Positions 836 through 63,028 of a stretch of DNA of 64,000 nt are shown here, one piece after another (the stretch's first letter is position 1; the number at the start of each line of letters is the position of its first letter). The notes beneath the pieces are model-generated. The model did not search any database, was not told the DNA's origin, and was given only the letters and a program-made list of their open reading frames with translations. Both the position numbers and the translations under genes were made by a program. The DNA comes from Malacoraja senta (taxonomy: Eukaryota): NCBI GenBank assembly GCA_038087875.1, contig CM075988.1, positions 4,278,001 to 4,342,000 of the forward strand, read 5' to 3'.

Positions 836-2290
836 ATTAAAAGATCATCAATGCAATTAGCGCCAACTCCAACAAGACTCCACCACCAGCCACGTGACCA
901 CCTCCCTCTCCTTATAAGCGCATCAAAGGGATCAATCCTTTTGTGACACCCTGATCCACTCTACTATTCCCACCAACAACCCTCAGCGCACTTTCTCATA
1001 ATCTTCTCTTAGGAGGGAATTTATGCTCTATTCTTAGCCAGCATCTGGCTTTATTCCGATAGGCACAGACACAAAATAAAACAGCTCGTAGATCAGTGTC
1101 AGGTCCATCGAACAAATCGGTCTATTGAAGGTCTTAACAGTGCGCATTGTCAGACACTCTGAGAGAACCCAAAGTGTTTCAAAGATTCACAGTGCCTACA
1201 GCATTTTATATTCTCATGACACAATGGTTACTTGTGGATTTGAAATGAATCATCATCGATCAATGTCTCTGTAACCTTTCATCTTTGTCTTTCCCTGGAG
1301 TTATCTTTAACCTTATGTTTTACTTCGGAGTCACGTGAGTGACTATGTGAAGACCCCGCCAGCCCGCATGCGCATCATATCATCTAATGCATTGCGCAAC
1401 GTCCACTAGCTGCTCCACTAGCGGTCAAACCTGAAGGTAAGTTGTAACTTTTTCCAGGTCTGTTTTCTCCTTGCAGGAAGCTCTTTACAGAGTTCCAGCT
1501 GGAGACATTCCGGGGTCAAAATCCCGGCTTCACCCGGCTCCCTTCTACAGGGACCATGGGGGGGGGGGGGGGGGGATCCCAGCTGCGAAAACTGCGGGGA
1601 TCTGGCTCGGGGGAAGCCCGACCACAGACATCGCGGGGAAGCCCTTCTACAGGGACCGCAGAGGGAATCCCGGCTGCGAAAACCGCGGGGAAAATCCGAC
1701 ATGGACTTCGCGGCGAATCCCTTCTACAGGGACCACGGAGAACCCGCTACGGAGACCGCAGAATGCGGGTAGCGGGTGGCGGTCGAATTCGCCTTTTCGG
1801 GTCGCTGGTGGTGGAGCCAGCGGCTTCAGACTGGTGCCGGTAACACCCAGGCAACCCCGCTTGGAGGGTCAGCGACTTCGACTTGGGCAGCCCAAAGGTA
1901 GGCAACCAAACAAAGTGGGAGAGGCCCGGGCTGGACGAGCCTGGCCAGGACGGTTCCCCTCCGACATTCTAGGGTACGTCCTCAGACGTCTTACCCAGCC
2001 TGATATGGTCCACTAAAACAGGGCCATATCAGCACAAGGTCCACGGAGGTTTACGGCAGCACCCGTGTACAGGGCTGCTCACAGATCTCCCTCTCGGTAG
2101 AGAGGCGTGCATTGGTCAGTGTGTGACTGACCCCAACCCCGGAGGAATGTCCATGGCACATGCTGCCATTCATGAGCGTTACTAACGGCATAAACACCCC
2201 TATGCCTCCATGGCATTAGCAGTTATAGTGTATCCTTTCAAGTATATGGCTATACAGGGTAGGCACCATTATGCTGATACCCTCTGATTG

Positions 2291-3228
2291 GCGGCGGGAG
2301 TGGGAGTGGCGGCGCCTAACGGCAGCGGCTCAACTACAGTCGTCAGTCTTTTTTTAATTTTTGTCTTGTTAAATGTATGTCTGGAGCTTAGTTTTTATTA
2401 TTTTTTAGCTGTGTATATGTGGGGGGTGGAGGGGGGGATGTTGGGGAAACCGTTAATCTCTTCCCTGTACGGGGACCCGACTTTTTCCCTGTCGGATCTC
2501 CGATGTTGTTGGGCCTAACATTGTGGAGCCGGCGGCGGCCTCCGGCCAGGACCAACCTGAGGGCTCCAGTCGCGGAGCCTGCGGACCTGACATCGCGGAG
2601 CTGGCCGACTTTGGAGCGGGGAGAGCTGTGGTGGCGTGCCGCTGCGACCCGATTTTGGAGTTTCGGAGGCTCCGGCTGCGGGCCCGGTGGACAGGAACAT
2701 CGGGAGCTCCAGGTCCCTGGTGGGAGACCACTTTTCGGAGCTCCCGCAACGACGACTTCTCCCGCTGGAATCGCGAGGTTCAAAGGACACGGACGGGACT
2801 TACCATCGCCTGCCGGGGGCTCTAACATCGGAGCCCCAGTTCGCCTAGACACTGCAGTTGGACTGCGGGTTGGACTGCTTGAACCGTGGGGTTTGAAGGG
2901 CGCGGAGCCGGGGCCTAGCATCGCCCGGCATGGCTGAATGGCCACGGGACTTACCATCGTCCGCCGGGGGCTTTAACACCGGAGCCCCAGTTCGCCTAGA
3001 CGCTGCAGTTGGACTGCTGGACCGCGGGTGAAGAATAAAGGGAAGAGATAAGACTTGCCTTCCATCACAGTGAGGAGGTGTTGGAGACTCACTGTGATGG
3101 ATGTTTATGTAAACTGTGTTAAGTGTGGGTATTGTGTTTTTTTGGTTTTTTTTGTAATGTAAAACAAAACTGTAGGAATGAAATTTCGTTCAAGCCTAGG
3201 CTTGAATGACAATAAACAGCATTCAATA
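2291..3228 (+). mobile_element. GC-rich non-coding retroposon, copy A (nested in the DIRS element)
   Basis: Shares CCCTGGTGGGAGACC.CTTTTCGG.GCT.CCGCA.CG.CGACTTCTCCCGC with copy B; two conserved hairpins; LINE-type tail TTTCG-stem-TGACAATAAA. Confidence 0.75.
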
Positions 3229-7959: not shown

Positions 7960-10465
7960 ATCCTACTTACTAAAGGGCAATTTACAGAGGCCAATGAACC
8001 TAGAAGTCCATACATCTTTGAGAATGTGGAAGGAATCCAGAGCAGCCGAAGGAAACCCATGTAACCACAGGGAGAACATAAAAAAACTCCACTCCAACAG
8101 CACCTGTAGTCAGGATCAAACCAGGGTTTCTGGTGCAGTGAGGCAACAGGTCTGCTGCTGCGCCACTGTGCCGCCCTTAAGATGCCCTTAACGTGATCAA
8201 TCTGATGAATGACGTTTGGGCCTGAAACGTCATCGTTGATTCGACACAGACAGCACTCAGGGCCAGGATCTTTCCTTAGATGCCGCCTGGCCTGTTCAGA
8301 CCTTCCAGCATTTTCTGATTTAATTTTAAATTTCCAACATGTGCAATTTTTCTGATTTTAGTTTAGTTTAGAGATACAGCGTGGAAACAGGCGCTTCGGC
8401 CCACCGAGTCCGCACCGACCAGCAATTCCCGCACATTAACACTATCTATGTACACTAGGGACAATTTTCACTTTACCAAGTAGCCAATTAACCTACCAAC
8501 CTGTATGTCTTTGGATTGTGTAAGGAAATCAAAGGTCTCGGAGAAAACCCACGCGGTCACGGGAAGAACATACAAAGTCCGTACAGAGAGCACCTGTAGT
8601 CGGGATCGAACCCCTGTCTCTGGCGCTGTGAGCGCTGTAAGGCAGTGACTCTACTGCTGCGCCACCGTGCCGCCCATTATGCAACAGGCATACGCTCGGC
8701 ATGTAGGAAAAATAAAACTATTGCTCTATATTGTATCTATAACTTAATATGCTCATTAAAATTCATCTTGGATGTTTTGACATAAAGCTTGTCCTCAATC
8801 ATAAGATGCAGAAAGCACTCATTGGCAAGAAAGAGAGTTTAAGACAAAGGAATAAAATAAGAGAGAGTTGGTGCATATATCTGGGGTTTGATAACATCTG
8901 ATTAACCTGTATCTCGATCTTGGAACACTGAAAGATCTGAGCATCTCATCTGAAATGTCAGTTTGCTTTTTTTTGTTCTGATTTTTAAGCATCATTTGAA
9001 GCATATGATACCTGGTTTTCAATGCTCAAGAACCGTATTGATTTGAAGAGTAAATTATAACTAAGAACCAATGCTCTAACATCTGTCAGCTTCTGAAAGA
9101 AGAAAGCTAGAAAACGATTTATGTGTGATCTTATGTCAGGACTGGCTGTTAGCTCCATTTTCCTTTGGAAGCTAATTGCCCTGTTATGTATTTGTACAGC
9201 TTCTGATTGCTATTTCACAATTCCTGCAGTCCAGCCCATTTCTTTTCTTTCATCTCTGGGAATGTTCTTTTGATCCCAAATGATAGCATCTCCTGCATCT
9301 GGTTCAAAGTTATTGCCCACACTCAAGAAACTGCTGAATTATTTTTAAAAATACTGATGTGCTATGTCTTATCAACCATGGTTAATGAGTTCAATGAAAG
9401 GCTGCCTAACTGCCCTAGACTGTATCGTGGCAGGTTTGATTGTGACTTGTAAACTAAACTAGTTTAGTTTAGTTAAGCGACGCAGCGCGGAAATAGGCCC
9501 TTCGACCCACCGAATCCGCACTTGCCAGCGATCCCCGCACATTAACACTATCCTGCACACACTAGGGACAATTTTACATGCATGCCAAGCCAATTAACCT
9601 ACAAACCTGTACGTCTTTGGAGTGTGGGATGAAACCGAAGATCTCGGAGAAAACCAACGCTAACTGTCTCTTTCCTTCTTCAAAACTCTATTCTTTTGTT
9701 TTGGTTCCTTTATAATCATTTCCACAGTGTTATTTGGTGGAGAATTAATTGTAGGTTTCTGTTGGCTTGCTGATGTTTCCAATTTTTATTTCCTGAAGCA
9801 AGGGGGTGGAAAATAAGTTTTGATTGATTTTTTGATTGAAAGATGCAGCATCGGAAAAGGCCCTTCAGCCCATCGAGTCAGCACTGACTCACTTATTCAC
9901 ACTAGTTCTATGTTATCCAACTTTCTGGGTGGCACAGTGGCGCAGCAGTAGAGTTGCTGCCTTAAAGCGCCAGAGACCCGGGTTCGATCCTGACTACGGA
10001 TGCTTGCATGTACGGAGTTTGTACGTTCTCCCCGTGACCGCGTGGCTTTTCTCCGGGATCTTCGGTTCCCTCCCACACTCCAAAGACGTACAGGTTTGTA
10101 GATTAATTGGCTTGGTAAAATTATAAATTTTCCCTGGTGTGTGTAGGTTAGTGTTAATATGCGGGTATCGTTGGTCGGCGTGGACTCGGTGGGCCGAATG
10201 GCCTGTTTCCGCACTGTATCCCTGAACTAAACTAAACGACACTTTCAAATCCATTCCCTACATGCGAGAGGCAATCTAAAGAGGCCATATTAACCAACAA
10301 ACCCACATGCCTTTGGGATATGGGAGGAAACTGGAACACCTGGAGGAAACCCGCGCGGTCACAGGGAGAATGTGCAAACTCCACACATACAGCACCCGAG
10401 GTCAGGATCGAACTTGTGACTTTGGCGCTGTAGGGCAGTGGCTCTACTGCTGCGCCACTTTCATG
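7960..10465. mobile_element. Cluster of HE1-like SINE copies (about 7960-8175 -, 8357-8675 -, 9451-9660 - partial, 9927-10237 +, 10270-10465 -) separated by unique DNA
   Basis: Same head, V-domain and tail as 523-835. Confidence 0.8.
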
Positions 10466-13036: not shown

Positions 13037-13243
13037 TTATACATTCGGGGCAATTTACAGATATAAATTAACCAACAAACAAACATAGACACAAAATGCT
13101 GGAGTAACTCAACGGGTTAGACTGCATCGCTGAAGAAAAGGAATAGGCCATGTTTCGGGTCGTGTCTGAAGAAGGGTGTCGACCCGAAAGGTTACCTTTT
13201 CACCAGAGATGTTGCCTGACCCGCCGAGTTACTTCAGCATTTT

Positions 13244-14039
13244 CAATTCAATTCAATTCAATTCAATTCAATTCAATTCAATTCAATTCAATTCAATTCA
13301 ATTCAATTCAATTCAATTCAATTCAATTCAATTCAATTCAATTCAATTCAATTTATTTGTCTTTTGGACAAATTTGTCATTTGGACCCCTTGAGGTCCAA
13401 ACGAAATATCGTTTCTGCAGCCATACATTACAAAACGAAGAAGACCCGAGACACAACACAATTTACACATACATCCATCACAGCGCTGTGATGGAAGGCA
13501 AAAAAACGTATCTCTCCACTGCACTCCCCCCCCCCCCGATGTCAGAGTCAAAGTCAAAGCCCCCGGCGGGCGATGGTGATTATCCCGCGGCCATTAAAGC
13601 CACGCCGGGTGATGCAAGGTCGCGCACCGGGTCTTGGTGTTAGAGCCCCGGCGCGCGCCCGCAAAGTCCGGCGGCCATTCCAAGCCGCGCGGGGGGATAA
13701 AGCCCCGCTCCAGGTGCGCTTCAACCCCGCAACTCGGGCGGGAGAAGTCGCCGCTGCGGAAGCCCCGAAAAGCGGTCTCCCACCAGGGACCCGCGGGCTT
13801 ACGGTGTTGCCGTCCGCCAGACCCGCGGTTGTAGCCTCCGAATCTCCGGCGGTCGGGTAGCAGCAGCGCTCCACCACAGCTCCACCCGCTCCGGACTCGG
13901 CCAGCCCCGCGACGGTGAGTAGTCCGCAGCTCCACGGGAGCCCCAGGTCGTTCCTGCTGGAGGCCGCTCCACGTTGCCCAGCCCCAACGACAACGGAGAC
14001 CCGACAAAGAAAAGGTCGGGTCTCCCGTGCAGCGGAAAG
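13244..14039 (-). mobile_element. GC-rich non-coding retroposon, copy B, 5'-truncated, with (TGAAT)n tail
   Basis: Splits a Penelope pLTR; ATTTT duplicated at 13239-13243 and 14040-14044; (CAATT)n array at 13244-13353; homologous to copy A. Confidence 0.8.
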
Positions 14040-14896
14040 ATTTTGTGTCTATCTTCAGTGTAAATCAGCATTTGCAGTTCCTTCCTGCACATTTAACTTA
14101 CAAATCGTCTTTATCCTTTGTAATTCTTAACACTGGCGCTTCTGAAGTGTGATGGATACACATGCTGGATACAAAACCTTCCAATTATAAGACAATCAAG
14201 CAGAGTTATATGGGTTTCTGAGAGGGAAGTTACATTTGGTAAAATGATCAACATACTTTGAGGCTGTAATGAGTGTGCTGGATTAAGGGGAACCAATAGA
14301 CATTGTGCATTCGAGTTTATAAAGACTTTCAATATAATGCAAACTTACTCCATAACTTAGAGCTCATTGGGTTGGGGTTACATAGCGTCATGGAGTCATT
14401 GAATAATACATCACGGAAACAGGTCCTTTGCTCAAACTCATCCATGCAGATCAAAATCCCCATCTAAGCTGCTCCCATTTGCCTCTGTTAAGCCCACATC
14501 CATTCCTATCTATGTATGTGCCCACATTTTGTTTTTACTGTACGTGCCTCAACTACGTTTTGAGGCACATTGTTCCATAATCTTGGCAACTCTAAATGAA
14601 GAAGTTGCCCCTCAGCTCCCTTTAAAATGTTCCCCTCTCACCTTAAACCTAGTGCAGGGAGTGGAGTAATATGGATCACGTGCAAGCAGATGAGATTAGT
14701 TTACAATCATGGTCAGCACAGACATTGTTACAGTTTAGTTTATTGTCACGTGTACTGAGGTACAGTGAAAAGCTTTTGTTGTGTGCTAACCAGGAAAGAC
14801 AATACGTGATTACAATCGACCCATTTACAGTGTATAGATACATAATAAAGGAATAACGTTTAATGCAAGGTAAAGTCAGAAAAGTCTGAAAAAGGA

Positions 14897-15889
14897 TAAT
14901 AATAATAATAATAAAAGATTTTATTTATGGGCGCCTTTCACAAAGTCTCAAGGACACCTTACAAAGTTTAACAAATAGTGTAGAAACATATAAGCGGAAT
15001 GAAATAAATAGCAAAGACATCACCAGAACACAAATTAAAGATAGAATTAAATCCAAAAACAAAAATCAAAAACACAATATGGAAGAGAGATCAGCGGCTG
15101 CTAAAGCGCGCCAACGTCCACTCTCCCTTCCGACCGCCATCTTGGACAAAGACTAACATAGACACTACACATTACACACAAAATCATCCCCCCACAATGA
15201 TTACCACTGTGGGGGAAGGCACAATGTCCAGTCCCCAACCCCAGTTCACCCAAAGTCAGGCCTATTGAGGCCTCCACAGTTGCCTCTACGGAGGCCCGAT
15301 GTTCCTGGCCGTTCTCGACGGGTGGAGTTGCCCCGGCGTCGGGAGAGTCCTCACAGCGGCTGGGACGGATGGAACGGCCGATCTCCTACCGGAGTCCGTG
15401 GCACCTGAAGCCGACAAGGCCGCGCCGATTTGGAGCTCCGAGGCTCCCGATGTTAGAGTCGGCGCCGCCGCCCGCAGCTGGCCGCTCCACAGTCCCGCAG
15501 CCCGGAGGTGTTGAGCTCGGGAACTCCAGCGCATCGATCCAGCGCGGTGACCCAGGCATGGCATCGCCCGCTCTGCTCCGCGATAGCGCTCCAGCGCTGT
15601 GCCGCCACCGAAGCTGAAGGTGCTGGGCAGTCCCCGCAGGAAAACGCTGCTCCAGGCCTGCTGGTACGCCACGAGGACGGGTCGACGGGGCAGCCCGGAG
15701 AAAAAGCTGCCTCACCGACCAGGTAGGGACCTAGAGATAGTTTCCCCCTTACCCCCCCACATTAAAAGTCAAAATTCCCCTAGACATAGACAGGAAACAA
15801 AACAAAACTAAAAACTAAATAAAAAAGTGAATTGAACTGGTTGGTTACTGAACTGGTTAGCAGCCATTCCCCAAGATAGCTCCTCCCAA
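14897..15889 (-). mobile_element. GC-rich non-coding retroposon, copy C, with L2-like tail and (TTA)n end
   Basis: Same architecture (T tract, G run, GGGGAAAC, two hairpins); tail TGTAAGGTGTCCTTGAG...AAAGGCGCCCATAAATAAAATCTTTTATTATT. Confidence 0.72.
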
Positions 15890-15910: not shown

Positions 15911-18297
15911 CTGTTCCTGTTCTGCACTGTTCTATGTTCTATGTTCTATGTTCCGTATGTTCTATGTTCTATATGTTCCATGTTCCATGTTCCATGTTCC
16001 ATGTTCCATGCTCCATGCTCCATGCTCCATGTTTTATGTATTATGATTTATGTTTTATGTTCCATATGTTCCATATGTTCCATATGTTCCATGTTCCATC
16101 TGTTCTATGTTATATGTTCCAGGTTCTATGTTCTATATGTTCGATATTCTAAGTCATATATTTTCTATGTTCTATGTTCTATATGTTCTATGTTCCATGT
16201 TCTATGTTCTATATGTTCTATATGTTCTTTGATCCATGTCATATGTTCTATATGTTCCATGTTCCATGTTCTATATGTTCTATGTTCTATATGTTCCATG
16301 TTCCATATGTTCCATGTTCCATGTTCTATATGTTCTATGTTCTATATGTTCTATGTTCCATGTTCTATGTTCTATATGTTCTATGCTCTATGCTATGTTT
16401 TATGTTCTATGTTCTATGTTCTATATGTTTATGTTCCGTTCCATGTTCTATGTTCTATGATTGATGTTTCATGTTCCATGTTCCATGTTCTATGATCTAT
16501 GTTATATGTTCTATGTTCCATGTTCTATATGTTATATATGTTCTATGTTCTATGTTCTGTTCTATGTTCTATGTTCTATGTTCTGTTCTATATGTTCTAT
16601 ATTTTCTATGTTCCATGTTCCAGGTTCTATGTTCTATGTTTGATATTCTAAGTCATATATTTTCTATGTTCTATGTTCTATATGTTGCATGTTCCATGTT
16701 CTATGTTCTATGTTCTGTATGTTCCATTCTATGTTCTATATGTTCTATGTTCCATGTTCTATGTTCTATATGTTCTATGTTCCGTGTTCTATGTTCTATA
16801 TGTTCTATGTTCCACGTTCTATGTTCTATGTTCTATGCTCTATGCTATGTTTTATGTTCTATGTTCTATGTTCTATGTGTTTGTGTTCCATGTTCCATGT
16901 TCTATGCTCCATGCTCTATGTTCTATACTCTATGTTATGTTCTATGTTCTATATGTTATGCTCTATGTTGTATGTTCTATGCTCTATACTCTATGTTCTA
17001 TGCTCTGTTCTGTTCTATGTTCCATGTTCCATGTTCCATGTTCCATATTCCATGATCTATGCTCTGTTCTGTGTTCTATGTTCTATACTCTATGTTTTAT
17101 GTTCTATGTTCCATGCTCTATGTTCTAGGTTCTATGTTCTGTGTTCTGTGTTCTGTGTTCTGTGTTCTGTGTTCAGTGTTCAGTGTTCAGTGTTCAGTGT
17201 TCAGTGTTCAGTGTTCAGTGTTCAGTGTTCAGTGTTCAGTGTTCTGTGTTCTGTGTTCTGTGTTCAGTGTTCAGTGTTCAGTGTTCAGTGTTCAGTGTTC
17301 AGTGTTCAGTGTTCAGTGTTCAGTGTTCAGTGTTCAGTGTTCAGTGTTCAGTGTTCAGTGTTCAGTGTTCAGTGTTCAGTGTTCAGTGTTCAGTGTTCTG
17401 TGTTCAGTGTTCAGTGTTCAGTGTTCAGTGTTCAGTGTTCAGTGTTCAGTGTTCAGTGTTCAGTGTTCAGTGTTCAGTGTTCAGTGTTCAGTGTTCAGTG
17501 TTCAGTGTTCTGTGTTCTGTGTTCTGTGTTCTGTGTTCTGTGTTCTGTGTTCTGTGTTCTGTGTTCTGTGTTCTGTGTTCTGTGTTCTGTGTTCTGTGTT
17601 CTGTGTTCTGTGTTCTGTGTTCTGTGTTCTGTGTTCTGTGTTCTGTGTTCTGTGTTCTGTGTTCTGTGTTCTGTGTTCTGTGTTCTGTGTTCTGTGTTCT
17701 GTGTTCTGTGTTCTGTGTTCTGTGTTCTGTGTTCTGTGTTCTGTGTTCTGTGTTCTGTGTTCTGTGTTCTGTGTTCTGTGTTCTGTGTTCTGTGTTCTGT
17801 GTTCTGTGTTCTGTGTTCTGTGTTCTGTGTTCTGTGTTCTGTGTTCTGTGTTCTGTGTTCTGTGTTCTGTGTTCTGTGTTCTGTGTTCTGTGTTCTGTGT
17901 TCTGTGTTCTGTGTTCTGTGTTCTGTGTTCTGTGTTCTGTGTTCTGTGTTCTGTGTTCTGTGTTCTGTGTTCTGTGTTCTGTGTTCTGTGTTCTGTGTTC
18001 TGTGTTCTGTGTTCTGTGTTCTGTGTTCTGTGTTCTGTGTTCTGTGTTCTGTGTTCTGTGTTCTGTGTTCTGTGTTCTGTGTTCTGTGTTCTGTGTTCTG
18101 TGTTCTGTGTTCTGTGTTCTGTGTTCTGTGTTCTGTGTTCTGTGTTCTGTGTTCTGTGTTCTGTGTTCTGTGTTCTGTGTTCTGTGTTCTGTGTTCTGTG
18201 TTCTGTGTTCTGTGTTCTGTGTTCTGTGTTCTGTGTTCTGTGTTCTGTGTTCTGTGTTCTGTGTTCTGTGTTCTGTGTTCTGTGTTCTGTGTTCTTT
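15911..18297. repeat. 7-mer satellite array: degenerate TGTTCTA/TGTTCCA, then mostly (TGTTCAG)n, then pure (TGTTCTG)n
   Basis: Directly visible; unit changes near 17135-17170 and 17505. Confidence 0.97.
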
Positions 18298-18429
18298 GTC
18301 CTCTAAGAATCTTGATAGGGGTCGAGGATTGGCTATCTGCACTTTGACAAACTGTAACTTTGTGAATTAGTGCTAGAGTTTGAGTTTTTTCAAGTCATTG
18401 GCCATGCCAAAGATATACTGTAGCCATGT

Positions 18430-29205: not shown

Positions 29206-31469
29206 ATAGATACATAGATACATAGAAAATAGGTGCAGGAGTAGGCCATTCGTCCCTTCGAGCCTGCACCGCCATTCAATATGATCATGGCTGATCATCC
29301 AACTCAGTATCCCGTACCTGCCTTCTCTCCATACCCCCTGATCCCTTTAGCCACAAGGGCCACATCTAACTCCCTCTTAAATATAGCCAATGAACTGGCC
29401 TCAACTACCCTCTGTGGCAGAGAGTTCCAGAGATTCACCACTCTCTGTGTGAAAAAGTTTTTCCTCATCTCGGTCTTAAAGGATTTCCCCCTTATCCTTA
29501 AGCTGTGACCCCTTGTCCTGGACTTCCCCAACATCGGGAACAATCTTCCTGCATCTAGCCTGTCCAACCGCATAAGAATTTTGTACGTTTCTATAAGATC
29601 CCCTCTCAATCTCCTAAATTCTAGCGAGTATAAGCCAAGTCTATCCAGTCTTTCTTCATATGAAAGTCCTGACATCCCAGGAATCAGTCTGGTGAACCTT
29701 CTCTGCACTTCCTCTATGGCTATAATGTCCTTCCTCAGATTTGGAGACCAAAACTGTACGCAATACTCCAGGTTTGGTCTCACCAAGACCCTGTACAACT
29801 GCAGTAGAACCTCCCTGCTCCTATACTCAAATCCTCTTACTATGAAGGCCAACATACCATTCGCTTTCTTCACTGCCTGCTGCACCTGCATGCCTACTTT
29901 CAATGACTGGTGTACCATGACACCCAGGTCTCACTGCATCTCCCCATTTCCTAATCGGCCACCATTTAGATAATAGTCTGCCTTCCCGTTTTTGCCACCA
30001 AAGTGGATAACCTCACATTTATCCACATTATACTGCATCTGCCAAACATTTGCCCACTCACCCAGCCTATCCAAGTCACCTTGCAGTCTCCTAGCATATT
30101 CCTCACAGCTAACACTGCCCCCCAACTTAGTGTCATCCGCAAACTTGGAGATGTTGCTTTCAATTCCCTCGTCCAGATCATTAATATAAATTGTAAATAG
30201 CTGGGGTCCCAGCACTGAGCCTTGCGGTACCCCACTAGTCACTGCCTGCCATTGTGAAAAGGACCCGTTTACTCCTACTCTTTGCTTCCTGTTTGCCAGC
30301 CAGTTCTCTATCCACATCAATACTGAACCCCCAATACCGTGTGATTTAAGTTTGTATCCTAATCTCTTATGTGGTACCTTGTCGAAAGCCTTCTGAAAGT
30401 CCAGATACAACACATCCACTGGTTCTCCCCTATCCACTCTACTAGTTACATCCTCGAAAAATTCTATAAGATTCGTCAGACACGATTTACCTTTCGTAAA
30501 TCCATGCTGACTTTGTCCAATGATTTCACCACTTTCCAAATGTGCTGCTATCCCATCTTTAATAACTGACTCTAGCAGTTTCCCCACTACCGATGTTAGA
30601 CTAACTGGTCTGTAATTCCCCGTTTTCTCTCTCCCTCCCTTCTTAAAAAGTGGGGTTACGTTTGCTACCCTCCAATCCTCAGGAACTACTCCAGAATCTA
30701 AAGAGTTTTGAAAAATTATCACTAATGCATCCACTATTTCTGGAGCTACTTCCTTAAGTACTCTGGGATGCAGCCTATCTGGCCCTGGTGATTTATCGGC
30801 CTTTAATCCATTCAATTTACCCAACACCACTTCCCGACTAACCTGGATTTCACTCAGTTTCTCCATCTCCTTTGACCCGCGGCCCCCTGCTATTTCCGGC
30901 AGATTATTGATGTCTTCCTTAGTGAAGACGGAACCAAAGTAGTTATTCAATTGGTCCGCCATATCCTTGTTCCCCATGATCAATTCACCTGTTTCTGACT
31001 GCAAGGGACCTACATTTGTTTTAACTAATCTCTTTCTCTTCACATATCTATAAAAACTTTTGCAGTCAGTTTTTATGTTCCCTGCCAGTTTCCTTTCATA
31101 ATCTATTTTCCCTTTCCTAATTAAGCCCTTTGTCCTCCTCTGCTGGTCTCTGAATTTCTCCCAGTCCTCTGGTATGCTGCTTTTTCTGGCTAATTTGTAC
31201 GCATCATCTTTTGCTTTGATACTATCCCTGATTTCCCTTGTTATCCACGGATGCACTACCTTCCCTGATTTATTCTTTTGCCAAACTGGGATGAACAATT
31301 TTTGTAGTTCATCCATGCAGTCTTTAAATGCCTTCCATTGCATATCCACCGTCAACCCTTTTAGAACTAATTGCCAGTCAATATTGGCCAATTCACATCT
31401 CATACCCTCAAAGTTACCTTTCTTTAAGTTCAGAACCGTTGTTTCTGAATTAACAATGTCCCTGATTTC
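29206..31469 (-). mobile_element. Young 5'-truncated CR1 LINE (ORF2 RT and C-terminus, 3' UTR, short repeat tail)
   Basis: ORFs 29931-31658 and 29304-29918 are in one frame, split by a single TGA; motifs KSPGPD, NYRPVSLTS, LDFQKAFDKV, GVPQGSVLGP, FADD. Confidence 0.97.
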
Positions 31470-31474
31470 GTGGG

Positions 31475-32006
31475 TAGGAAGGACCTGCAGATGCTGGTTT
31501 ACACCGGTGATGGAGACAAAATCCTGGAGTAACTCAGCGGGACAGGCAGCATCTCTGGATAGGAGGAATTTTAGTTTATTAGTGTATAGAGATGCAGATG
31601 CTGCGCGGAAACAGGCCCCTCGGCCCACCGAGTCCGTACCGATCAGCGATCTCTGCACATTAACGCTATCCTACACACACTAGAGACAATTTACACTTAT
31701 ACCAAGCCAATTAACCTACAAGCCTGTACATCTTTGGAGTGTGGGAGGAAACCAAAACCGAAGATTTTGGTGAAAATCCACGCGGTCACGGGGGGAACGT
31801 ACAAACTCCGTACAGACAGCACCCGCAGTCTGGATCACACACGGATCTCTGGCACTGCAAACGCTGTAAGGCTGCTACTAACTTCACAAATAGAATGGGA
31901 AGGAATGCCCATTCCTTCTCTTAAGAGATGCTGCCTGTCCCGCTGAATTACTCCAGCATTTTGTGTCTAACATTGATGTAAACTAGCATCTGCAGTTCCT
32001 TCCTTC
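31475..32006. mobile_element. Inverted Penelope pLTR pair interrupted by an HE1-like SINE (about 31570-31872 -)
   Basis: GGAAGGACCTGCAGATGCTGG...CAGGCAGCATCTC and its reverse complement flank the SINE. Confidence 0.75.
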
Positions 32007-43074: not shown

Positions 43075-43258
43075 AGGGAAATTTGAGTTGCCATTTGCAG
43101 CACGCCAACAAAAATAAACACAACATTAAAGAATTTAACATTGAACATAAAAACATCCCCCCACTATGGTTCCCACTGTGAGGGAAGGCAGCAAAGTCCA
43201 GTCCTCTTCCCCTTGTTTACCCATGGTCGGGCCTATTGAGGCCTCCGCAGTCGCCGCA
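43075..43258 (-). mobile_element. GC-rich non-coding retroposon, copy E (3' fragment)
   Basis: GGCCTATTGAGGCCTCC.CAGT.GCC and hairpin 2 shared with copy C. Confidence 0.7.
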
Positions 43259-43643
43259 ACAAGATACAAGGAATTGCAGATGCTACTTTACACAAAATCT
43301 CCTTGTACACAATTTAGAAAGGCAAATTAACCTACAAACCTGTCGTCTTTGGGATGTGGGAGGAAACCAGAGCACCTGGTGGAAACCCAGGCAGTCACAG
43401 GGAGAACGTGCAAACTTCACACCCACCGCACCTGGCGTGGTGAACAAACCCGGGTCTCTGGTGCTGTGAGGCAGCAGCTCGACTGTGTTAGGCATAGGGA
43501 ATGTCCATCTGGAGTAGAGGGGATGTTGAGGCAGTAGAATGTTGGCATTGATGGATCTTTGAAGTTGTGGAGGGTGGGAAATCAATGGAGTCAGAGCGAA
43601 GGAAACAAGAATGAAGCTGTGGTGTCAGCTGAGTCTACATGTG

Positions 43644-55535: not shown

Positions 55536-56591
55536 AGCCCCAGACCAGTGTGTGCATGTGTATGCCGTGTGTGCGTGGGAGTGTGTTGGCAGGGATTAAG
55601 GGGATATATGAGCCAGAAATGTTAAGGAATTAATAGCATAAAATACTGCAAATATTAATGCAGCATTGCTAACACAGTGGTTGGCAATCAAGAAAGTGAA
55701 TATTTTAGCAGTGATCTTCCAGAACACCCAAATTCTGGGGCAGATCCAATAGATTGGAAGATAGTACATGAAACACGACACTTCGTGCGATTGAACAAAG
55801 AAGGAAAGAGGAACGAGCTACCTTTATGTGGTGACTATTGCATACATTGTGTGTGCAAGCAAAGAATTTCACTGTGGACTTGTCACTTGTGACAATGAGG
55901 TATTCATTCATTCATTCATTCATTCATCCATTCATTCATCGTCCTGGTAGCTTTACGTCAGTTGTAAAAAAATAGCAGATGATACAAAATCTTGAAAGCA
56001 AAGTACCACCAGATTCAGCAACAGCTGCTTCCCTGCTGTCACCTCCCCATCTCCCAACCTACCTCATTGCAGCCCTTGCATTTATTTTAACCTGCACTTT
56101 CTCTGAAAATGTCTGGTCATGACACCATATTCTGCACTCTGATGTTTTTTTCTCTTTGCGCTAACTTGTGGTTGCGTATGGGCCAGAATGTGTAGGGCCA
56201 TTTACACACCAGTCATTCCTTCTTCTCCCCTTTCCCACTTTCCCATCAGATTGAAACCACATGATACCAGATACAGGAACAGCTTCTTCCCCGTTGTTGC
56301 CAGGGGAGGGGAGGGGGGGGTCGTGAACTTTCCTCTGCTCTAGGAATCCTGCCCTAAAGGCATTTTGCTCAGGCGGATGCCGGGCTTAATGTGAAGATGG
56401 TACTTTTGCTTCCGGCAAGACTGGGATAGAGCTTCCCAAAGCTGCTCTCGGCTGTGGACGTATTTGGGGATTTTCTTGCTTCAGCTGGAGGCTTCTGATT
56501 TCTGCTACTTGCATTTGACTGTGACTGTTTGCGGGACTTAACTTGGAGCTGAGCTGCTGGGCTGCCTGGAGCTGGTTGTGCCTCTGTCAGG

Positions 56592-58742
56592 ATGGCTGGG
56601 GCTCGTCCGAAGAACCGGAGCTACGCAGTGGCGGCATCAGAGGCGGATGCGAGGACATTGGAGTATGAGCCTTATGTGGACTTGGATTGGGGCAGGTTTG
56701 GTATTTCGGAGAGGGGGATATCAGTGGGGGGGGTCCACATACAGGTAGATCTGTGGGTATCTAGGATGCGATCGGTTCTCCTGCGGAGTTGCCCCACATT
56801 TATTCCGGATGCTGCACTTATTCCACACCTGTCTAAGGTTGGGGAGGTGAGGTCTAAGTGCTTTAGGCTCAGGCACCTCGGGGGGGACCCGGAGGAAAGA
56901 GGGATCTTTAGTTTTAAGAGGAGGGTGTTTCTGAAGGTGGGTGAGGGCGATGGCGTGGAGGGGAGCTTTGAGGTGGAGTGTACGGGTCTCCATAGAACCG
57001 TGTATTGGAGTTGGGGGAAGGCACGGTGTCATGCGTGTGGAGAATTTGGACATCTCCGTAAAGAGTGTCTTTCTCGCGGGGTCGCTGCTAGAAGTTCTAG
57101 CGTAGCGGCCCGGGATTGCACTGCTGGCCCATCCGGGGTGGCTCATCATGCCTCGGTGGCGCTGGGTGGCACTGCTGACCTGGCTAGGACGGCTAGCTCT
57201 ACCTCGGGGATCCGGGGCGGAAGTGATAGCCCATCTGGGTCTGCAAGTTCCGCCTTGGGGACCCGGGGCGGGGAAGGCCTTCGCCCCCTGCGTCCTGAGC
57301 CTGTGGAGGTGGTGGTGGCTAATGGTGAGGTGCAGGGTGAGGGTGAAGAGGGGGAGGGTGCAGATGGGGAGGGGAAGTGGGAGGTGCAGAAGACGAGGAG
57401 GAGGAGGACGAGAAAGGTCAATCCAGAGAGTCTATCGCAATCTGAGACCACCCTAGGGGTGCCTGTCAGCTCTAGTGAGGTCCAGAGTGTGCTTGCCGTG
57501 GCCCAGCAAGGAGATGAGGTGGCTCAGACGGGGGAAGGGATGGTAAAGTGTGCAGGTGGTAAAGTGCCTGGGGGTAGTGTGGAGGAGGAAGACCCTTCCT
57601 TTATGGAGGTCACCGTACCGCCGCATGCTAGTAGGGTAAAAAGGAGGTTTAGGCCTGGCGAGGAAGAGGAAGGGCGTGAGTCGAAAGTTAGGGGGACGAC
57701 TTTTTCCAGACCTTCCACCACTGATGTGGTTGGTTGTCAAGAGCTGGTGTCTTCCGGGTTGGAGGGTGAGCCTCCATTTCAGGGATCTTCCGCGGGGATT
57801 ACAGGATCAGGTGATGGGGTTGATTCCTCTGGAGTTGTGTCCTCTGGGCGGGTGGATGTCCCTTCATCTCAGGGGCCCTCCGGTGGAGTTATCTCATCGG
57901 GTGTTGAGGTTAGCTCCCCTGGGTGTGTGTCCTCTGGGTCGGAGGAGGTCTCCTCGTTTCAGAGGCCTCTTGAGGGTGATGGCACGCCAGAGGATGGGGT
58001 ATGTGCCCCTGGTAGTGGGGCCCCTGAGATGGGGGATGAGCAGAGTCAGCCCGAGGGGGGTGGTTCGGGGGCTTTGGTGTTCCAGTCTGTGCTCCACACC
58101 AGAGCCAGCGGTGGTAATGGGGGGTGTGCTGCATCGCCGGATGAGTTGGTAGGGGAGAGGATAAAAGAAAGTGGAGAGCCTCTGGGTGCTGCCAGTGGAG
58201 GGGATGCTATAGGTGCAGTGGAGGTCGGGGATAGTTTGGGTGGTGATTTCCCTTTAGTTTCCGGGGGTGCCAGTGTATCACAGGCCCTGGGGGTGCCTAG
58301 TGTTTTTGCTTCCCCAGGCCCAAGCGTGGAGGGTGATGGTGGCGTGCAGGTGTCAAACCAGTCAGGGGGCTGCCTGTTGCAGTCAGGGGTTTCGGGACCC
58401 TTACCTGGCATTGATCCTGGGGGTGGTGTCTTACTGGAGGAGGGGGAGAGTGCTCAGGAAAGTTTGTGTAGTGTGGGTGATGAGCTTTCGGAGAGCTCTG
58501 GTCGTTCAAATTCTGAAAGCGACCTTGAACGTTGTGGTATGGAGCCTGTTGTTGCAGGTGCGAGTGCGTTGGCCGAGTGCCCAGGCTCCAAGGCCGAGTC
58601 TCATGTACGTGATATACGGGTGGTTCGAGAATTCCTCAAAACAAACCGCTCCCTCAGAACAAGAATGGAGGCTGCTAAAAGGCGGTGGGCTGATCTGCCA
58701 GGTTTGATTCAGACTCTTGAGGCTATTCTTGGCAACAGGTAG
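56592..58742 (+). CDS. Tx1 ORF1 nucleic-acid-binding protein, 716 aa, open
   Basis: CHACGEFGHLRKEC zinc knuckle (CX2CX4HX4C), long S/G/E-rich region, helical C-terminus VVREFLKT...RWADL. Confidence 0.8.
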   Translation: MAGARPKNRSYAVAASEADARTLEYEPYVDLDWGRFGISERGISVGGVHIQVDLWVSRMRSVLLRSCPTFIPDAALIPHLSKVGEVRSKCFRLRHLGGDPEERGIFSFKRRVFLKVGEGDGVEGSFEVECTGLHRTVYWSWGKARCHACGEFGHLRKECLSRGVAARSSSVAARDCTAGPSGVAHHASVALGGTADLARTASSTSGIRGGSDSPSGSASSALGTRGGEGLRPLRPEPVEVVVANGEVQGEGEEGEGADGEGKWEVQKTRRRRTRKVNPESLSQSETTLGVPVSSSEVQSVLAVAQQGDEVAQTGEGMVKCAGGKVPGGSVEEEDPSFMEVTVPPHASRVKRRFRPGEEEEGRESKVRGTTFSRPSTTDVVGCQELVSSGLEGEPPFQGSSAGITGSGDGVDSSGVVSSGRVDVPSSQGPSGGVISSGVEVSSPGCVSSGSEEVSSFQRPLEGDGTPEDGVCAPGSGAPEMGDEQSQPEGGGSGALVFQSVLHTRASGGNGGCAASPDELVGERIKESGEPLGAASGGDAIGAVEVGDSLGGDFPLVSGGASVSQALGVPSVFASPGPSVEGDGGVQVSNQSGGCLLQSGVSGPLPGIDPGGGVLLEEGESAQESLCSVGDELSESSGRSNSESDLERCGMEPVVAGASALAECPGSKAESHVRDIRVVREFLKTNRSLRTRMEAAKRRWADLPGLIQTLEAILGNR

Positions 58743-58849
58743 AGTGATCTTCCTGTCTTAGAGCAGAGCCAGTTTGGGGACTTTTTGGTGTTCCTCAGAC
58801 AGAGTTGTTGTGTCCACGGGGAGTGTGAGGGGTTTAATCTAGTGTGCCT

Positions 58850-61800
58850 TCACATTCACCGTCGCAACATTAAACTTAAACGGGAGTAGAGCGAGTTTTC
58901 GTAGATTTCAGCTTTTATCAGTCCTTAAAGAGCGGAGATTTGCAGGAGACGCACACAGTTGTTAGTGATGAACCTACATGGAGACTGGAATGGGAAGGGG
59001 CGGTTTACATGAGCTATCTCAGCTCGAATTCGAGTGGGGTGGCCCTTTCTGTTGGCCCAGAATTTCCTGCCAACTATTCTAAAAGTGCAAGAATTTGTGC
59101 CAGGATGTTTGCTCCATCTGGCCGTGAGCCTGGATGACATGCCGTTGCATTTCATTAACGTGTATGCCCCTAGCTCCGGTACGATGCAGGCCAGTCTCAT
59201 TCAGGAGGTGACTGCTCTGTCGAGCACTATTGATAGGGGAGAGTGTGTCTTCCTTGGTGGGGACTTTAATTGCACACTTGAGGCGCGAGATCGTTCTGGT
59301 ACTCGGTGTGCCCCTGCTGTAGCGAAGAAGCTGAGAGGGATGATTGAATCCTTTGAGTTGGTTGATGCGTGGCGGAACCTCCACCCGGATTCCACTGCGT
59401 TTTCGCGGAGGTCTGAGGGTGGTGGTTCCCGTATTGATCGAATATATATTTCCCGAGCGTTTGTTGCCCGTGTCTCAGCGGCCTCAATGCGGTTGGTGCC
59501 GTGTTCGGATAACTGTCTGGTGCGTGTGGACTTTAATCCGGCGCGCACTCGGGCTGGGTCCGCGTACTGGCACTTTAACAACCGGCTGCTGGAGGATCGG
59601 TGTTTCCTGGAGTCATTCAGTCGGTTTTGGGTGAAGTGGAGAGAGAGGCGGAGGTGCTTCTCTTCCCTTAAGCAGTGGTGGGATGTGGGGGAAGGCTCAC
59701 ATCCGTCTATATTGTAAGGAGTATACGTGGGGGGTCGACCGGGACCGCGGGACTCAGCGGTCGAGAGGCTTGAGAGGGAGCTACGGGGCGCAGAGTCTCG
59801 CCTGGGATGGTGAGGACTCCTGTGAATGGGGAGAGTTTCAGTAGAAGAAGGAAGCCTTGAGGAACCTGCTGCTTGAGCGGTCGCGAGGCGCTTTCTTGAG
59901 GGCGCGGGTCCAGATGATGCAAGATCTGGACCGAGCTTCGCCTTTCTTTTTCTCTCTGGAGAAAGGGCGGGGAGCACCCAAACAGCTCGTAGAGCTGCTC
60001 GCAGATGATGGCTCCTCTGTCACTTATCCGGAGAGGATCAGTGAGGTGGTCAGGTCCTTTTATGGGTCCCTGTTCTCCGCAGGGGGATTCAACGGGGAGG
60101 CTCAGCAGGACTTGTGGGATGGTCTACCGACTGTTGATAGGGAGGTGGCCGATCTTCTTGATGGGCCCTTATCTTTGGAGGAATTGACTTGTGCATTGTT
60201 TCAGCTCAGGAAGGGTAAGTCCCCCGGGATGGATGGGTTGACGGTAGAGTTTGTCAGAGCTTTCTGGGATATCCTGGGGGGGTGATTACATGTTGGTGCT
60301 GGGGGAGAGTCTGGCGGCCGGGGCGATGCCCCTCTCGTGGCATAGGGCAGTTGTTGTCTTGCTGCCCAAGAAGGGCGAACTCCGCTTGTTGAAGAACTGG
60401 AGGCCGGGTATCTCTCCTATGTACAGAGTATAAAGTATTTGCACGGGCAATGCAAATCGTCTGGGCCCTGTGCTGTCTCAAATGATTCACCTTGACCAGT
60501 CCTATACAGTCCCTGGCAGGTCCATTCAGGTTAACATCCACCTGGTAAGGGACCTGATTCATCTAGTTCACGGTACTGGTCAGTCAGCTGCTTTTCTGTC
60601 TCTTGATCAGGAGAAGGCTTTTGATAGGGTAGAGCATGATTACCTATTCGGGATGTTGCAAGCGTTTGGATTTGGACCGCATTTTGTGGCCTGGGTCCGG
60701 CTTCTGTACGCTGCAGCGGAGTGCCTTGTGAAGGTTAATGGTGCGTTGTTGGCTCCCTTTCATTTTGGGGAGGGGGGTCCGTCAGGGGTGCCCCATGTCG
60801 GGTCAGTTGTACTCGGTCTGTGTGGAGCCGTTCCTGTGTCTTCTTCGGAGGAGGTTGACAGGCCTGGCCCTACCTGGCCCGGGGGTGGAGGTGGTTCTTT
60901 CGGCGTATGCAGATGTATTTCTTATGTTCACTGATCCTGGTGACCTGCGGAGGATGCGTGACTGTCAGGAGATTTTCTCAGCTGCATCTTCTGCCAGGAT
61001 TAACTGGAGTAAGTGCTCTGGTAGTATAGTAGTATAGTATTTTAATGACCACACAGCCAAGCTGGTGGAATTTTGGGTTGTCAGCAGCGATACAATAATA
61101 AGAACACACAACCACAATAAAAAAAATTTAAAAAAAAATAAAAATAAAAAAAAATAATAAAAAATGTAACACAAACATCCACCACAGCATTCATCACTGT
61201 GGTGGAAGGCACAAAAATTTGGCCAATCCTCCCTCCATTTCCCCCTCCGTGAACAGGACCAGAGTCCAGAGTCAGTCCAGGATCGGCTCTTCCTCACCGG
61301 AGACCGCGGCTTTAAGTTGTTGTAGGCCGCAGGCCGGCTGTCGAGATTTAAAGTCTCCGCTGCAGCCAGAAGCACCGTAGACTGCAGGGCCGGCGGTCGA
61401 AGCTCCCCTGCAGGGGTGTTGGTAAGTCCATGCCGGCCCCGCGGTAGAAGTTGGCCGCGGGCCGGCAGTGATGGCTTCTTCTTCTTCCCCCGGGTCCCCC
61501 CATGAGGGATCCCGGGCTGTAGACGCCGCACCAGCTGGAGCTCTGCAGACCGTGGCTTCAGGCTGCGACTTCAGGCTGCTGGCTGCCCTGGGCCAGCGAA
61601 ACGGAGCGCTCCCCCTCCAGCGAGCCCCAGCGAGGGGCTCACCCGCTCCACGCCGAGAGTCCACGCTGCGCCCGCCGCTGAAGCCCCGCGCCGATCCTTG
61701 ATGTTAGGCCACGGGGGAGGCGACCTGGAAAAAGTCGCCTCTCCATGGAGGAGGCGACCGAAGCGGTTTCCCCCCTTACCCCCCCCACACCACCCCCCAC

Positions 61801-62995
61801 ACAAGACACACACAAAGATACACAAAATACATACTTTAAAATATACTAAAAAATAAAAAAAAGTTGAAAAAACTGACGCGCTGCTGACATGGCTGCTGCC
61901 CAGAGCAGCGCCCCCCTTCCCCTTGGTCTTTTGTGGGTCAGTGGCAGGTGGATGCCCTGCCGGAGGAGATGGCAAGGTATGTGTGGAGCACCACACATCT
62001 CCTCTATCTGGGGGGTTACATGAGTCTCACTGAGGATGCTTGGCCGGCGAACTGGCAGGAGTTGGAGACGAAAGTGGTTGCCCGGCTGGGGCGCTGGTTG
62101 GGCCTGCTTGGAGTTCTTTCCTTTCAGGGGAGGGGTGATGGTCATAAATCAGCTGGTGGCCTCCATGTTATGGTACCGGCTGGCTACTCTTGTCCCACCT
62201 TCCATATTTGTAAATGCTCTTCAGAAGAAGCTGGTAGATTTCTTCTGGGGAAATAGGAAGCACTGGGTCTCTGCAGCGGTCCTGAGTCTCCCGTTAGAGG
62301 AGGGCGGCCAGTCCTTGGTATGCGTGCGTACCCAGGTGGCGGCTCTCCGTCTCAGGACTCTGCGGATATATATGTATGTAGAGAACCCCCCCAGATGGCA
62401 CGCTCTGGCCACGTATTTTTTCGTCGGGGTCATTGCCTAGGGGGGTCTCGCGGCTCCCGGTGGCGGGCATCAGTCGACCCGCCCTAAGGGGTTTGCCTGT
62501 TTTCTACTGGGATGTGATCAGAGTGAGGAATTTGGCTGTTTTCAGCCAGCGTGTTGCTCCACGAGGGGAGGGGGATGGTGAGGCTGCGGGAGTGGCCGGT
62601 CCTCGCCCAGTCATGGCGAGTGTCGAGGAGAGGCTTCCTTGAATCCAAGTTGAAAGAACTCTGAAGTCATTGAAAGGGAGATACAGATTTACAAGAGTTT
62701 TCTGTAAAGTGTACATTTGCTCTGACTGGTCCCTCACCTGACCCTTGCCTGCTGGAAACCAGTGCACCATCTACAAGGTTGTGCGTTTACCGTTTGAACA
62801 ACTTTTGCTGGAATTTTCCACCAACTTTCAGCCCGCATATTCGATCTGCTTTCTCTGGAATTTTCCACAATTTAAAAAAAAATGTTGGACCCCCTCATGG
62901 CCAGTTTCAATCCAATTTCAACCCTAAAATTGAGGTTGGAAACTGACGGTTTTATACCTTTCCTTTACAATTGTCTTTGGGGGGAGAGGGAGAGG

Positions 62996-63028
<33 letters not shown>

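What the first reader, a model, noticed from the sequence alone, without database searches (positions are those of the whole stretch)
2291..3228. Candidate undescribed family of structured non-coding retroposons with covarying hairpins (5 copies)
Seen: copies A (2291-3228 +), B (13244-14039 -), C (14897-15889 -), D (61023-61918 -) and E (43075-43258 -). The full-length copies A, C and D share one layout: short GC leader, T-rich tract, G run ending GGGGAAAC, hairpin 1, CpG-rich body, hairpin 2, T/G-rich tract, LINE-type tail and short repeat end; B and E are 5'-truncated. Hairpin 2 always sits between GCCT and TG, but the stem changes on both arms: TCCATCACAG/CTGTGATGGA (A 3061-3101, B 13474-13495), TCCACCACAG/CTGTGGTGGA (D 61178-61206), TCCCCCACAG/TTGTGGGGGG (C 15187-15216), TCCCTCACAG/TAGTGGGGGG (E, imperfect). 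Loop lengths vary widely. Known: short target duplications, 5' truncation and repeat tails indicate LINE-driven target-primed reverse transcription. Inference: there is no tRNA-like head or conserved ORF, and internal T runs would stop Pol III, so this is not a classical SINE. It may be a Pol II-transcribed parasite RNA whose structure is under selection.
Basis: partly seen in the sequence, partly recalled or inferred. Interest (0 to 1): 0.78.

Follow-up and report, generated by a model that had tools for sequence, protein, structure and literature searches.

The report
End-paired noncoding hitchhikers of Rex1 LINEs
These five repeats belong to a family of more than 16,000 protein-free jumping elements whose ends resemble those of the genome's Rex1-type jumping genes and are predicted to pair with each other across about 800 bases, a fold also predicted for those genes and likely part of how their enzyme picks the RNA it copies.

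Summary
A-E are five subfamilies of one large superfamily of ORF-less non-LTR retroposons: 16,372 exact hairpin-2 matches, control 0, and 66 clusters among 237 sampled hits. Each element has a short leader like a LINE 5' end, a 500-700 nt CpG-rich middle of unknown origin, and a LINE tail. The tail is Rex1/Babar-type in most clusters and L2-type in two separate lineages. Hairpin 1 covaries strongly (8 of 12 pairs). It is subfamily-specific, shows about nine compensatory changes on a tree, and is predicted in six autonomous Rex families too. Target-site duplications are mostly absent. No tRNA head, Rfam match, HDV ribozyme fold or Pfam domain was found. Best reading: a new variant of bipartite non-autonomous LINEs. 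Pol II transcription and function are inferred. Dfam and Repbase could not be checked.

The parts
2300..3227 (+). Copy A, full length, Rex1/Babar-type tail; family about 920 nt
2300..2348 (+). A leader, similar to the 5' end of Rex LINE L155; 2334-2340 is the 5' strand of the predicted end-to-end helix
   Evidence: (0 of 200 shuffles)
2349..2450 (+). A T-rich tract and G run ending GGGGAAAC (2443-2450)
2471..2501 (+). A hairpin 1 with pyrimidine loop
3061..3101 (+). A hairpin 2
3169..3175 (+). A 3' strand of the predicted end-to-end helix (7 bp; not formed in the single-sequence fold of A)
3182..3227 (+). A tail: stem-loop, AATGACAATAAA and a short repeat, like Rex LINE tails
   Evidence: 0 of 300 shuffles
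13244..14043 (-). Copy B, 5'-truncated just before hairpin 1: hairpin 1 13995-14025, hairpin 2 13474-13495, helix 3' strand 13414-13422, Rex-type tail from 13407 with a long (ATTGA)n
14897..15887 (-). Copy C, full length: GGGGGAAAC 15740-15748, hairpin 1 15687-15713, hairpin 2 15188-15216
14897..15145 (-). C second module: LINE-start-like CCAAGATGG (15137-15145, complementary to 15871-15879 at the element's 5' end), T-rich tract, L2-type tail from 14963
61023..61928 (-). Copy D, full length, inserted into a Tx1/L1-like LINE; family sequence starts near 61921 after a few extra 5' letters; GGGGGAAAC 61766-61774, hairpin 1 61714-61744, hairpin 2 61178-61206, Rex-type tail from 61073
   Evidence: empty site
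61879..61888 (-). D 5' strand of the end-to-end helix; pairs with 61080-61089 (10 perfect bp, present in both the MFE and the centroid fold)
43075..43260 (-). Copy E, 5'-truncated; hairpin 2 43157-43185; tail broken off at a C-rich repeat; nearest sampled subfamily L252 (84.5%)

Best explanation
[quoted passage not shown] Shown: copy number, fixed 5' starts, 5' truncation, tail likeness, covariation in hairpin 1 and the end helix, two separate gains of L2-type tails. Inferred: (1) an ancestral element joined a Rex 5' end and a Rex 3' end to a CpG-rich structured RNA; (2) the leader and CpG-rich middle act as an internal Pol II promoter; (3) the transcript closes into a ring through the 7-11 bp end helix, placed 6-10 nt before the tail stem-loop; (4) the LINE ORF protein binds the tail stem-loop, with the helix helping to present it or to mark full-length RNA; (5) target-primed reverse transcription starts at the short-repeat tail and leaves little or no target duplication; (6) tails are occasionally swapped, giving new partners.
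For: High copy number and fixed ends. Autonomous single-ORF RVT_1 + PF09004 LINEs of about 3.2 kb exist in the genome and share the tail layout. A's tail matches L137/L138 and D's matches L143, each 0 of 300 shuffles. Two subfamilies begin with the same AAGATGGCGGCGCC as the Rex elements. Leaders match LINE 5' ends at p<=0.01 in 9 of 36 clusters, 6 Rex and 3 L2. End helix: cognate 8.14 against non-cognate 6.68 Watson-Crick pairs of 11 in 28 subfamilies, 0 of 20,000 permutations; 1+2+4+2 changes between Watson-Crick states at four pairs on a tree of the middle. In six autonomous Rex families the cognate leader/pre-tail assignment is the best of 720. Hairpin 1: 8 of 12 pairs change on both sides, and 6 of these pairs were predicted blind. 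Plus-strand RNA folding is favoured: the G-U state is the commonest in hairpin 2 while C-A occurs in 57 of 16,372 matches. L2-tailed clusters are not one clade (AU p=0.0003).
Against: No transcript is shown. 27 of 36 leaders have no significant match to the seven LINE starts sampled. The tails of B (18 of 300 shuffles) and C (77 of 300) have no significant partner among the sampled LINEs. The permutation tests ignore relatedness, and the windows and anchors were chosen after I saw the pairing by eye. A first run with badly placed anchors gave only p about 0.05, and a blind column scan ranked T/G-rich tracts first. In A the helix is 7 bp and absent from the single-sequence fold. In Rex L153 the run is 5 bp and commonplace (50 of 67 internal windows do as well). 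The labels Rex1/Babar and L2 rest on domain content, ORF layout and recall, not on a tree with reference proteins.
Confidence: 0.7

Rival explanations
1. The middle is the long 5' UTR of an autonomous LINE that I did not sample, so the elements are plain internal-deletion derivatives (SIDEs) and the hairpins are LINE UTR structure.
For: The middle is CpG-rich like a LINE promoter (CpG o/e 0.83-1.05). Internal deletion is the usual origin of bipartite LINEs (PMC5786205, passages; PMC6740152, introduction). Only six Rex families and one L2 family were traced to their 5' ends.
Against: The sampled Rex families start their ORF at the element's 5' end, leaving no room for the middle, and PMC13343379 reports no ORF1 in any Rex1 (passage). 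The 5' region of the traced L2 gave no BLAST hit to the four consensuses in 5 of 5 stretches. The window's CR1-like and Tx1-like LINEs gave none either. 57 of 69 clusters reach a recognisable tail within 330 nt of hairpin 2; the other 12 were not translated, but those printed show regex misses, truncation or the reverse orientation.
Confidence: 0.15
2. The elements are SINE-like: a structured host non-coding RNA (the middle) that gained LINE ends and is transcribed by Pol III from an upstream promoter or by read-through from host genes; the conserved hairpins reflect that RNA's own ancestry.
For: Tail swapping around a conserved middle is typical of SINE superfamilies (PMC5786205), and GC-rich heads of unknown origin are known in bird SINEs (PMC4844689).
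Against: No tRNA, A/B box or Rfam match; 4-5 runs of four or more T in the first 150 nt of each consensus; the 5' end resembles LINE starts; the structure kept compensating while subfamilies diverged.
Confidence: 0.1
3. The complementary segments arose at DNA level (palindrome correction or template switching) and are not selected RNA structure; the end helix is a by-product of relatedness and shared motifs.
For: Hairpin 2 is mostly invariant; B's hairpin 2 is a perfect palindrome; the anchors were picked after the fact.
Against: G-U states are common and C-A states rare, which is strand-specific. The helix strands lie about 800 nt apart and change together several times on the tree. The same position pairs in autonomous Rex families with different sequences.
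Confidence: 0.05

Closest known systems
Bipartite ORF-less non-autonomous LINEs (RIME, NARTc, Vingi-1_EE derivatives, Bov-A, RTESINE; PMC5786205, passages read)
   Same: LINE 5' end plus LINE 3' end, no ORF, presumed Pol II transcription, tail exchange.
   Different: That 2018 paper lists only RTE, Ingi, Vingi and R2 as sources; here the ends are Rex1/Babar-type, with a 500-700 nt structured middle not traced to the LINE, dozens of subfamilies and a covarying end-to-end helix. A word search of that paper for pair, complement, secondary and stem found no end pairing.
SIDEs from CR1-group LINEs: Persaeus from Zenon (PMC6740152, abstract start and introduction read)
   Same: Non-autonomous derivative of a CR1-group LINE.
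   Different: A SIDE is a deletion product of its LINE; here most of the length is not LINE-derived, and the partner changed at least twice.
AviRTE-mobilised SINEs with GC-rich heads: BuceSINE, ManaSINE2 (PMC4844689, passages read)
   Same: GC-rich part of unknown origin plus two LINE-derived pieces.
   Different: There the unknown part is the head and both LINE pieces lie in the tail; here the LINE-like pieces flank the unknown part, and the partner is not RTE.
Cartilaginous-fish SINEs HE1, SacSINE1, CmiSINE, SINE2-1_CM (PMC3747384 table passage; PMC5499810 abstract)
   Same: Conserved middle with LINE tails; probably the same host group (host not identified here).
   Different: HE1, SacSINE1 and SINE2-1_CM are listed with tRNA heads and CR1-type partners; the C. 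milii SINEs share an L2 tail. These elements have no tRNA head and are about 850-1000 nt. I did not align them to those SINE sequences, which no tool supplied.
SVA (recalled, not looked up)
   Same: Composite, CpG-rich, Pol II-type non-autonomous retroposon.
   Different: SVA uses L1 through a poly(A) tail and makes target duplications; these carry stem-loop tails with short repeats and mostly none.

Membership tests
Bipartite non-autonomous LINE / SIDE | 3' end derived from an autonomous LINE | tested here: met
   Same tail layout; A and D tails match Rex tails, 0 of 300 shuffles each; B and C not significant
Bipartite non-autonomous LINE / SIDE | 5' end derived from an autonomous LINE | tested here: inconclusive
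   Significant in 9 of 36 clusters; near-identical start in L170 and L196; the rest show only a degenerate motif
Bipartite non-autonomous LINE / SIDE | Consists only of LINE parts joined by an internal deletion | tested here: not met
   The 500-700 nt middle has no match in the sampled Rex, L2, CR1-like or Tx1-like LINEs; unsampled LINEs remain possible
Bipartite non-autonomous LINE / SIDE | No RT ORF | tested here: met
   No shared ORF among the consensuses; no Pfam hit in 4 of 4 overlapping frames
Bipartite non-autonomous LINE / SIDE | Pol II transcription and trans-mobilisation by the partner LINE | not testable with these tools
   No run on record as RNA; needs an assay
Classical SINE (tRNA, 5S, 7SL, snRNA head) | Small-RNA-derived head with Pol III boxes | tested here: not met
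CORE/V/Deu SINE superfamilies | Carries the named conserved domain | not tested
   No reference sequences were available from the tools
Ribozyme-bearing retroelements (HDV-like LINE ends, retrozymes) | Self-cleaving ribozyme fold | tested here: not met
   HDV descriptor 0 of 138 strand scans (home-made, no positive control, 5'-truncated representatives included); no Rfam ribozyme hit in the window
Non-LTR retroposon (target-primed insertion) | Fixed 3' end with short repeat tail, variable 5' truncation, dispersed copies | tested here: met
Non-LTR retroposon (target-primed insertion) | Target-site duplication | tested here: inconclusive
   At background level in A, B and D; 5 of 19 in C; 2-3 nt target loss at D. 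Short or missing duplications are usual for CR1-group LINEs (recalled)
Already annotated Dfam/Repbase family | Full-length match to a curated consensus | not testable with these tools

The most novel reading that the evidence does not exclude
Rex1/Babar LINE RNA is recognised as a ring: its leader pairs with the segment just before the 3' stem-loop, and that helix is a cis-signal for retrotransposition. A large undescribed superfamily of Pol II parasites keeps the helix by compensatory change while carrying its own conserved structured domain and swapping LINE partners. This would explain why some ORF1-less LINEs leave derivatives that keep both ends.
Probability: 0.4. Interest if true: 0.82.

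Novelty: new variant of a known kind. Interest (0 to 1): 0.66.

Why it matters
LINE template choice is usually explained by the 3' stem-loop alone (PMC4176376, abstract). A helix joining the two ends, kept both in autonomous Rex1 elements and in dozens of parasite subfamilies, gives a direct, testable reason why some LINE derivatives keep both termini; PMC5786205 says the bias in which LINE groups yield bipartite derivatives is unexplained. The family would also add Rex1/Babar to those groups, supply a natural set of compensatory mutants, and annotate at least 16,000 loci of this genome.

Tried and rejected
Ribozyme: an HDV-like L3 word (TCCTCGCGG) follows hairpin 1 in several subfamilies, but my descriptor found no complete fold in 138 strand scans, and Rfam gave 5 weak hits, none on the copies. 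Pseudoknot between GGGGAAAC and the hairpin-1 loop: complementary in most subfamilies, but it competes with a local helix and shows no clear covariation; left open. Module as 5' UTR of the Rex copy in L152: it is a separate insertion about 4 kb upstream with its own tail. C's second module as a free element: 27 of 30 unbiased hits have hairpin 2 directly upstream and the other 3 still carry the preceding tract. Protein coding: rejected. Splicing: no GT..AG joint among the joints shown (lists cut). Expression: no RNA holder listed; contigs cannot give strand or start. Metagenome scan: 33 hits, none in element context. Earlier scan findings: two look-ups, nothing. Literature: ten searches found no description of this family or of Rex1 end pairing; most subscription journals and all supplements were unseen, so this is not proof of absence. 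End-helix scoring with mis-set anchors and a blind column scan were weak or dominated by low-complexity tracts; one search used alignment-based anchors.

Full report
Observation. They align poorly with each other (A-B about 76%, the others in patches) because each is its own subfamily. Searching the 1.94 Gb host genome gave 6070, 2969, 5152 and 3851 first-look candidates for A, B, C and D; only 40 were scored each time, at 87-99% identity. Consensuses from 30, 25, 25 and 25 loci show fixed 5' starts and lengths of about 850-1000 nt. An exact hairpin-2 pattern has 16,372 matches and the reversed control 0. This pattern misses C-type copies, whose second module alone has 2,632 matches. Among fetched loci, 237 motif hits fall into 69 clusters, 66 of them in the right orientation (loci overlap, so hits are not all separate copies).

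Partners. A search with PF09004 found single-ORF LINEs of about 3.2 kb with RVT_1 and PF09004. I call them Rex1/Babar from that layout and from recall; PMC13343379 (passages) says no Rex1 has an ORF1. Their tails read ATTTCGTT, stem-loop, TGACAATAAA, short repeat. By pattern, 50 of 69 clusters end this way, 6 end in an L2-type tail, 1 in a second Rex-type tail, and 12 were unclassified (these include regex misses such as family B). A's tail matches L137/L138 and D's matches L143 (0 of 300 shuffles each); B (18 of 300) and C (77 of 300) found no significant partner. On a tree of the middle (47 rows), L2-tailed clusters sit in two places among Rex-tailed ones, and one clade is rejected (AU p=0.0003).

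The 5' end. Most of the autonomous Rex families traced start at or near AAGATGGCG, at the ORF start; L389 starts with a related word. Elements L170 and L196 start with the same letters. Leaders match one of seven LINE starts at p<=0.01 in 9 of 36 clusters, 6 Rex and 3 L2; the other 27 keep only a loose motif. The middle matches no sampled LINE: not Rex, not the 5' region of an L2 traced to its start, not the window's CR1-like or Tx1-like elements. There is no tRNA, Pol III box, Rfam family, HDV fold or Pfam domain. CpG o/e is 0.83-1.05.

Insertion marks. Target duplications of 7 nt or more are at background in A (1 of 23), B (1 of 12) and D (0 of 19), and above it in L2-tailed C (5 of 19 against 2.9%) (only copies with both ends found were counted). 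For D, contigs of the host LINE join 61021/61022 to 61929 with 2-3 extra letters, so the insertion removed a few bases and added a few at its 5' side.

Structure. Hairpin 1, 22 subfamily representatives (L005, which has a deletion there, left out): 92.9% of cells paired against 82.9% shuffled, 8 of 12 pairs and 22 cells changed on both sides, 0 of 500 shuffles as high for cells and score, 4 of 500 for pairs, and slid controls at 31-51%. RNAalifold predicted the inner 6 pairs unaided, each with a two-sided change. Hairpin 2, 64 distinct rows: 99.2% paired but only 1 of 10 pairs two-sided (A-U 47, C-G 14); the 5' letter of that pair changes once on the tree. Rows were collected by this motif, which favours invariance. 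The neighbouring pair runs U-A 15, U-G 33, C-G 16, and the C-A state occurs in 57 of 16,372 matches and in no cluster. That asymmetry points to folding of the plus-strand RNA. Whole copies D and A fold better than all 20 shuffles (z -2.7 and -3.1).

End-to-end helix (new). The end of the leader is complementary to the segment 6-10 nt before the tail, about 800 nt away; in D it is 10 perfect pairs, 61879-61888 with 61080-61089, present in both the MFE and the centroid fold. A free duplex test on 32 clusters gave cognate -15.5 against non-cognate -13.9 kcal/mol (p 0.00015). With alignment-based anchors on 28 Rex-tailed clusters, cognate pairs average 8.14 Watson-Crick pairs of 11 against 6.68 (0 of 20,000 permutations). 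Left out of the 36 clusters: 3 L2-tailed, 4 with no tail end found, 1 without leader. On a tree built from the middle only, four pairs switch between Watson-Crick states 1, 2, 4 and 2 times; a fifth (5 times) is ambiguous because of a bulge (two anchors moved by one column by hand). Six autonomous Rex families show pairing at the same place with different sequences, and the cognate assignment is the best of 720. Against this: windows were chosen after I saw the pairing, relatedness is not removed, mis-set anchors gave p about 0.05, a blind scan favoured low-complexity tracts, the helix is absent from A's single fold, and against internal windows the perfect run is uncommon for L137, L147 and L138 (3 of 65, 3 of 65, 4 of 64 windows as long) but not for L155 (12 of 81) or L153 (50 of 67). 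In the C clade a different long-range pair exists, 5' CCATCTTG(G/A) with internal (C/T)CAAGATGG: 24 copies GG/CC, 7 GA/TC, 1 other, that is one compensatory event.

Mechanism. Shown: dispersal, fixed ends, truncation, tail likeness, covariation, tail swaps. Inferred: transcription by Pol II from the leader and CpG-rich middle (the T runs argue against Pol III); binding of the tail stem-loop by the LINE protein, as shown for zebrafish L2 elements (PMC4176376, abstract); a role of the end helix in presenting the tail or selecting full-length RNA; and target-primed insertion. The role of hairpins 1 and 2 is open; RNA stability, export or keeping the parasite RNA near the LINE protein are guesses.

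Comparison. It works like a bipartite non-autonomous LINE, but it fails one defining feature, being made only of LINE parts, and it comes from a group that PMC5786205 (passages) does not list as a source. SIDEs from CR1 (PMC6740152, introduction), AviRTE SINEs with GC-rich heads (PMC4844689, passages; PMC7245038, passages) and shark SINEs (PMC3747384, table passage; PMC5499810, abstract) differ as listed. A Rex review (PMC6274825, passages) showed nothing on such derivatives. Ten searches found no description. Dfam, Repbase, most subscription papers and all supplements were not seen, and automated repeat libraries may well hold these consensuses unlabelled.

Verdict. A real feature and a new variant of a known kind; interest 0.66. 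The end-pairing signal shared with Rex1 is the part most worth testing.

Noticed in passing
window 56553-63918: Tx1/L1-like LINE (long first frame with a zinc-knuckle-like motif, endonuclease and RT pieces); copy D is inserted in its RT region. The clade label is recalled.
   Followed up: partly
window 29304-31670 (-): CR1-like RT ORF piece of 579 aa (RVT_1), 5'-truncated.
   Followed up: partly
window 1330-2000: GC-rich repeat beginning with the near-palindrome GAGTCACGTGAGTGACT; a similar start follows hairpin 2 in L173. It may be a DIRS-like element end (recalled).
   Followed up: no
window 15920-18310: Long 7/14/21-nt satellite directly upstream of copy C.
   Followed up: no
window 13180-13244 and 14040-14070: Copy B sits inside another abundant short repeat, with about 5 nt (AAAAT) on both sides that also overlap B's own sequence.
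   Followed up: partly
L325:4457-5300: The full-length L2-type LINE starts CAAGATGGCCGCGC, like the Rex starts, and has a CpG-rich tandem-repeat 5' region; no clear leader/pre-tail helix was seen for it.
   Followed up: partly
L274, oriented positions about 8045-8170: A 3' fragment of an L2-tailed subfamily is inserted in the 3' UTR of an L2 copy, just before a similar tail.
   Followed up: no
L361, 5' end of a C-type copy: Inverted duplication of the element's first 18 nt at the 5' junction; short duplications of flanking sequence also occur at several A junctions.
   Followed up: no
window 2443-2490 and equivalents: GGGGAAAC is complementary to the pyrimidine loop of hairpin 1 in most subfamilies; possible pseudoknot or switch.
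   Followed up: partly
window 2793-2869 and 2944-3020: 77-nt internal repeat in A, each unit containing GGACTTACCATC, which reads as a splice-donor-like word on the opposite strand; related words occur in D and L152.
   Followed up: no
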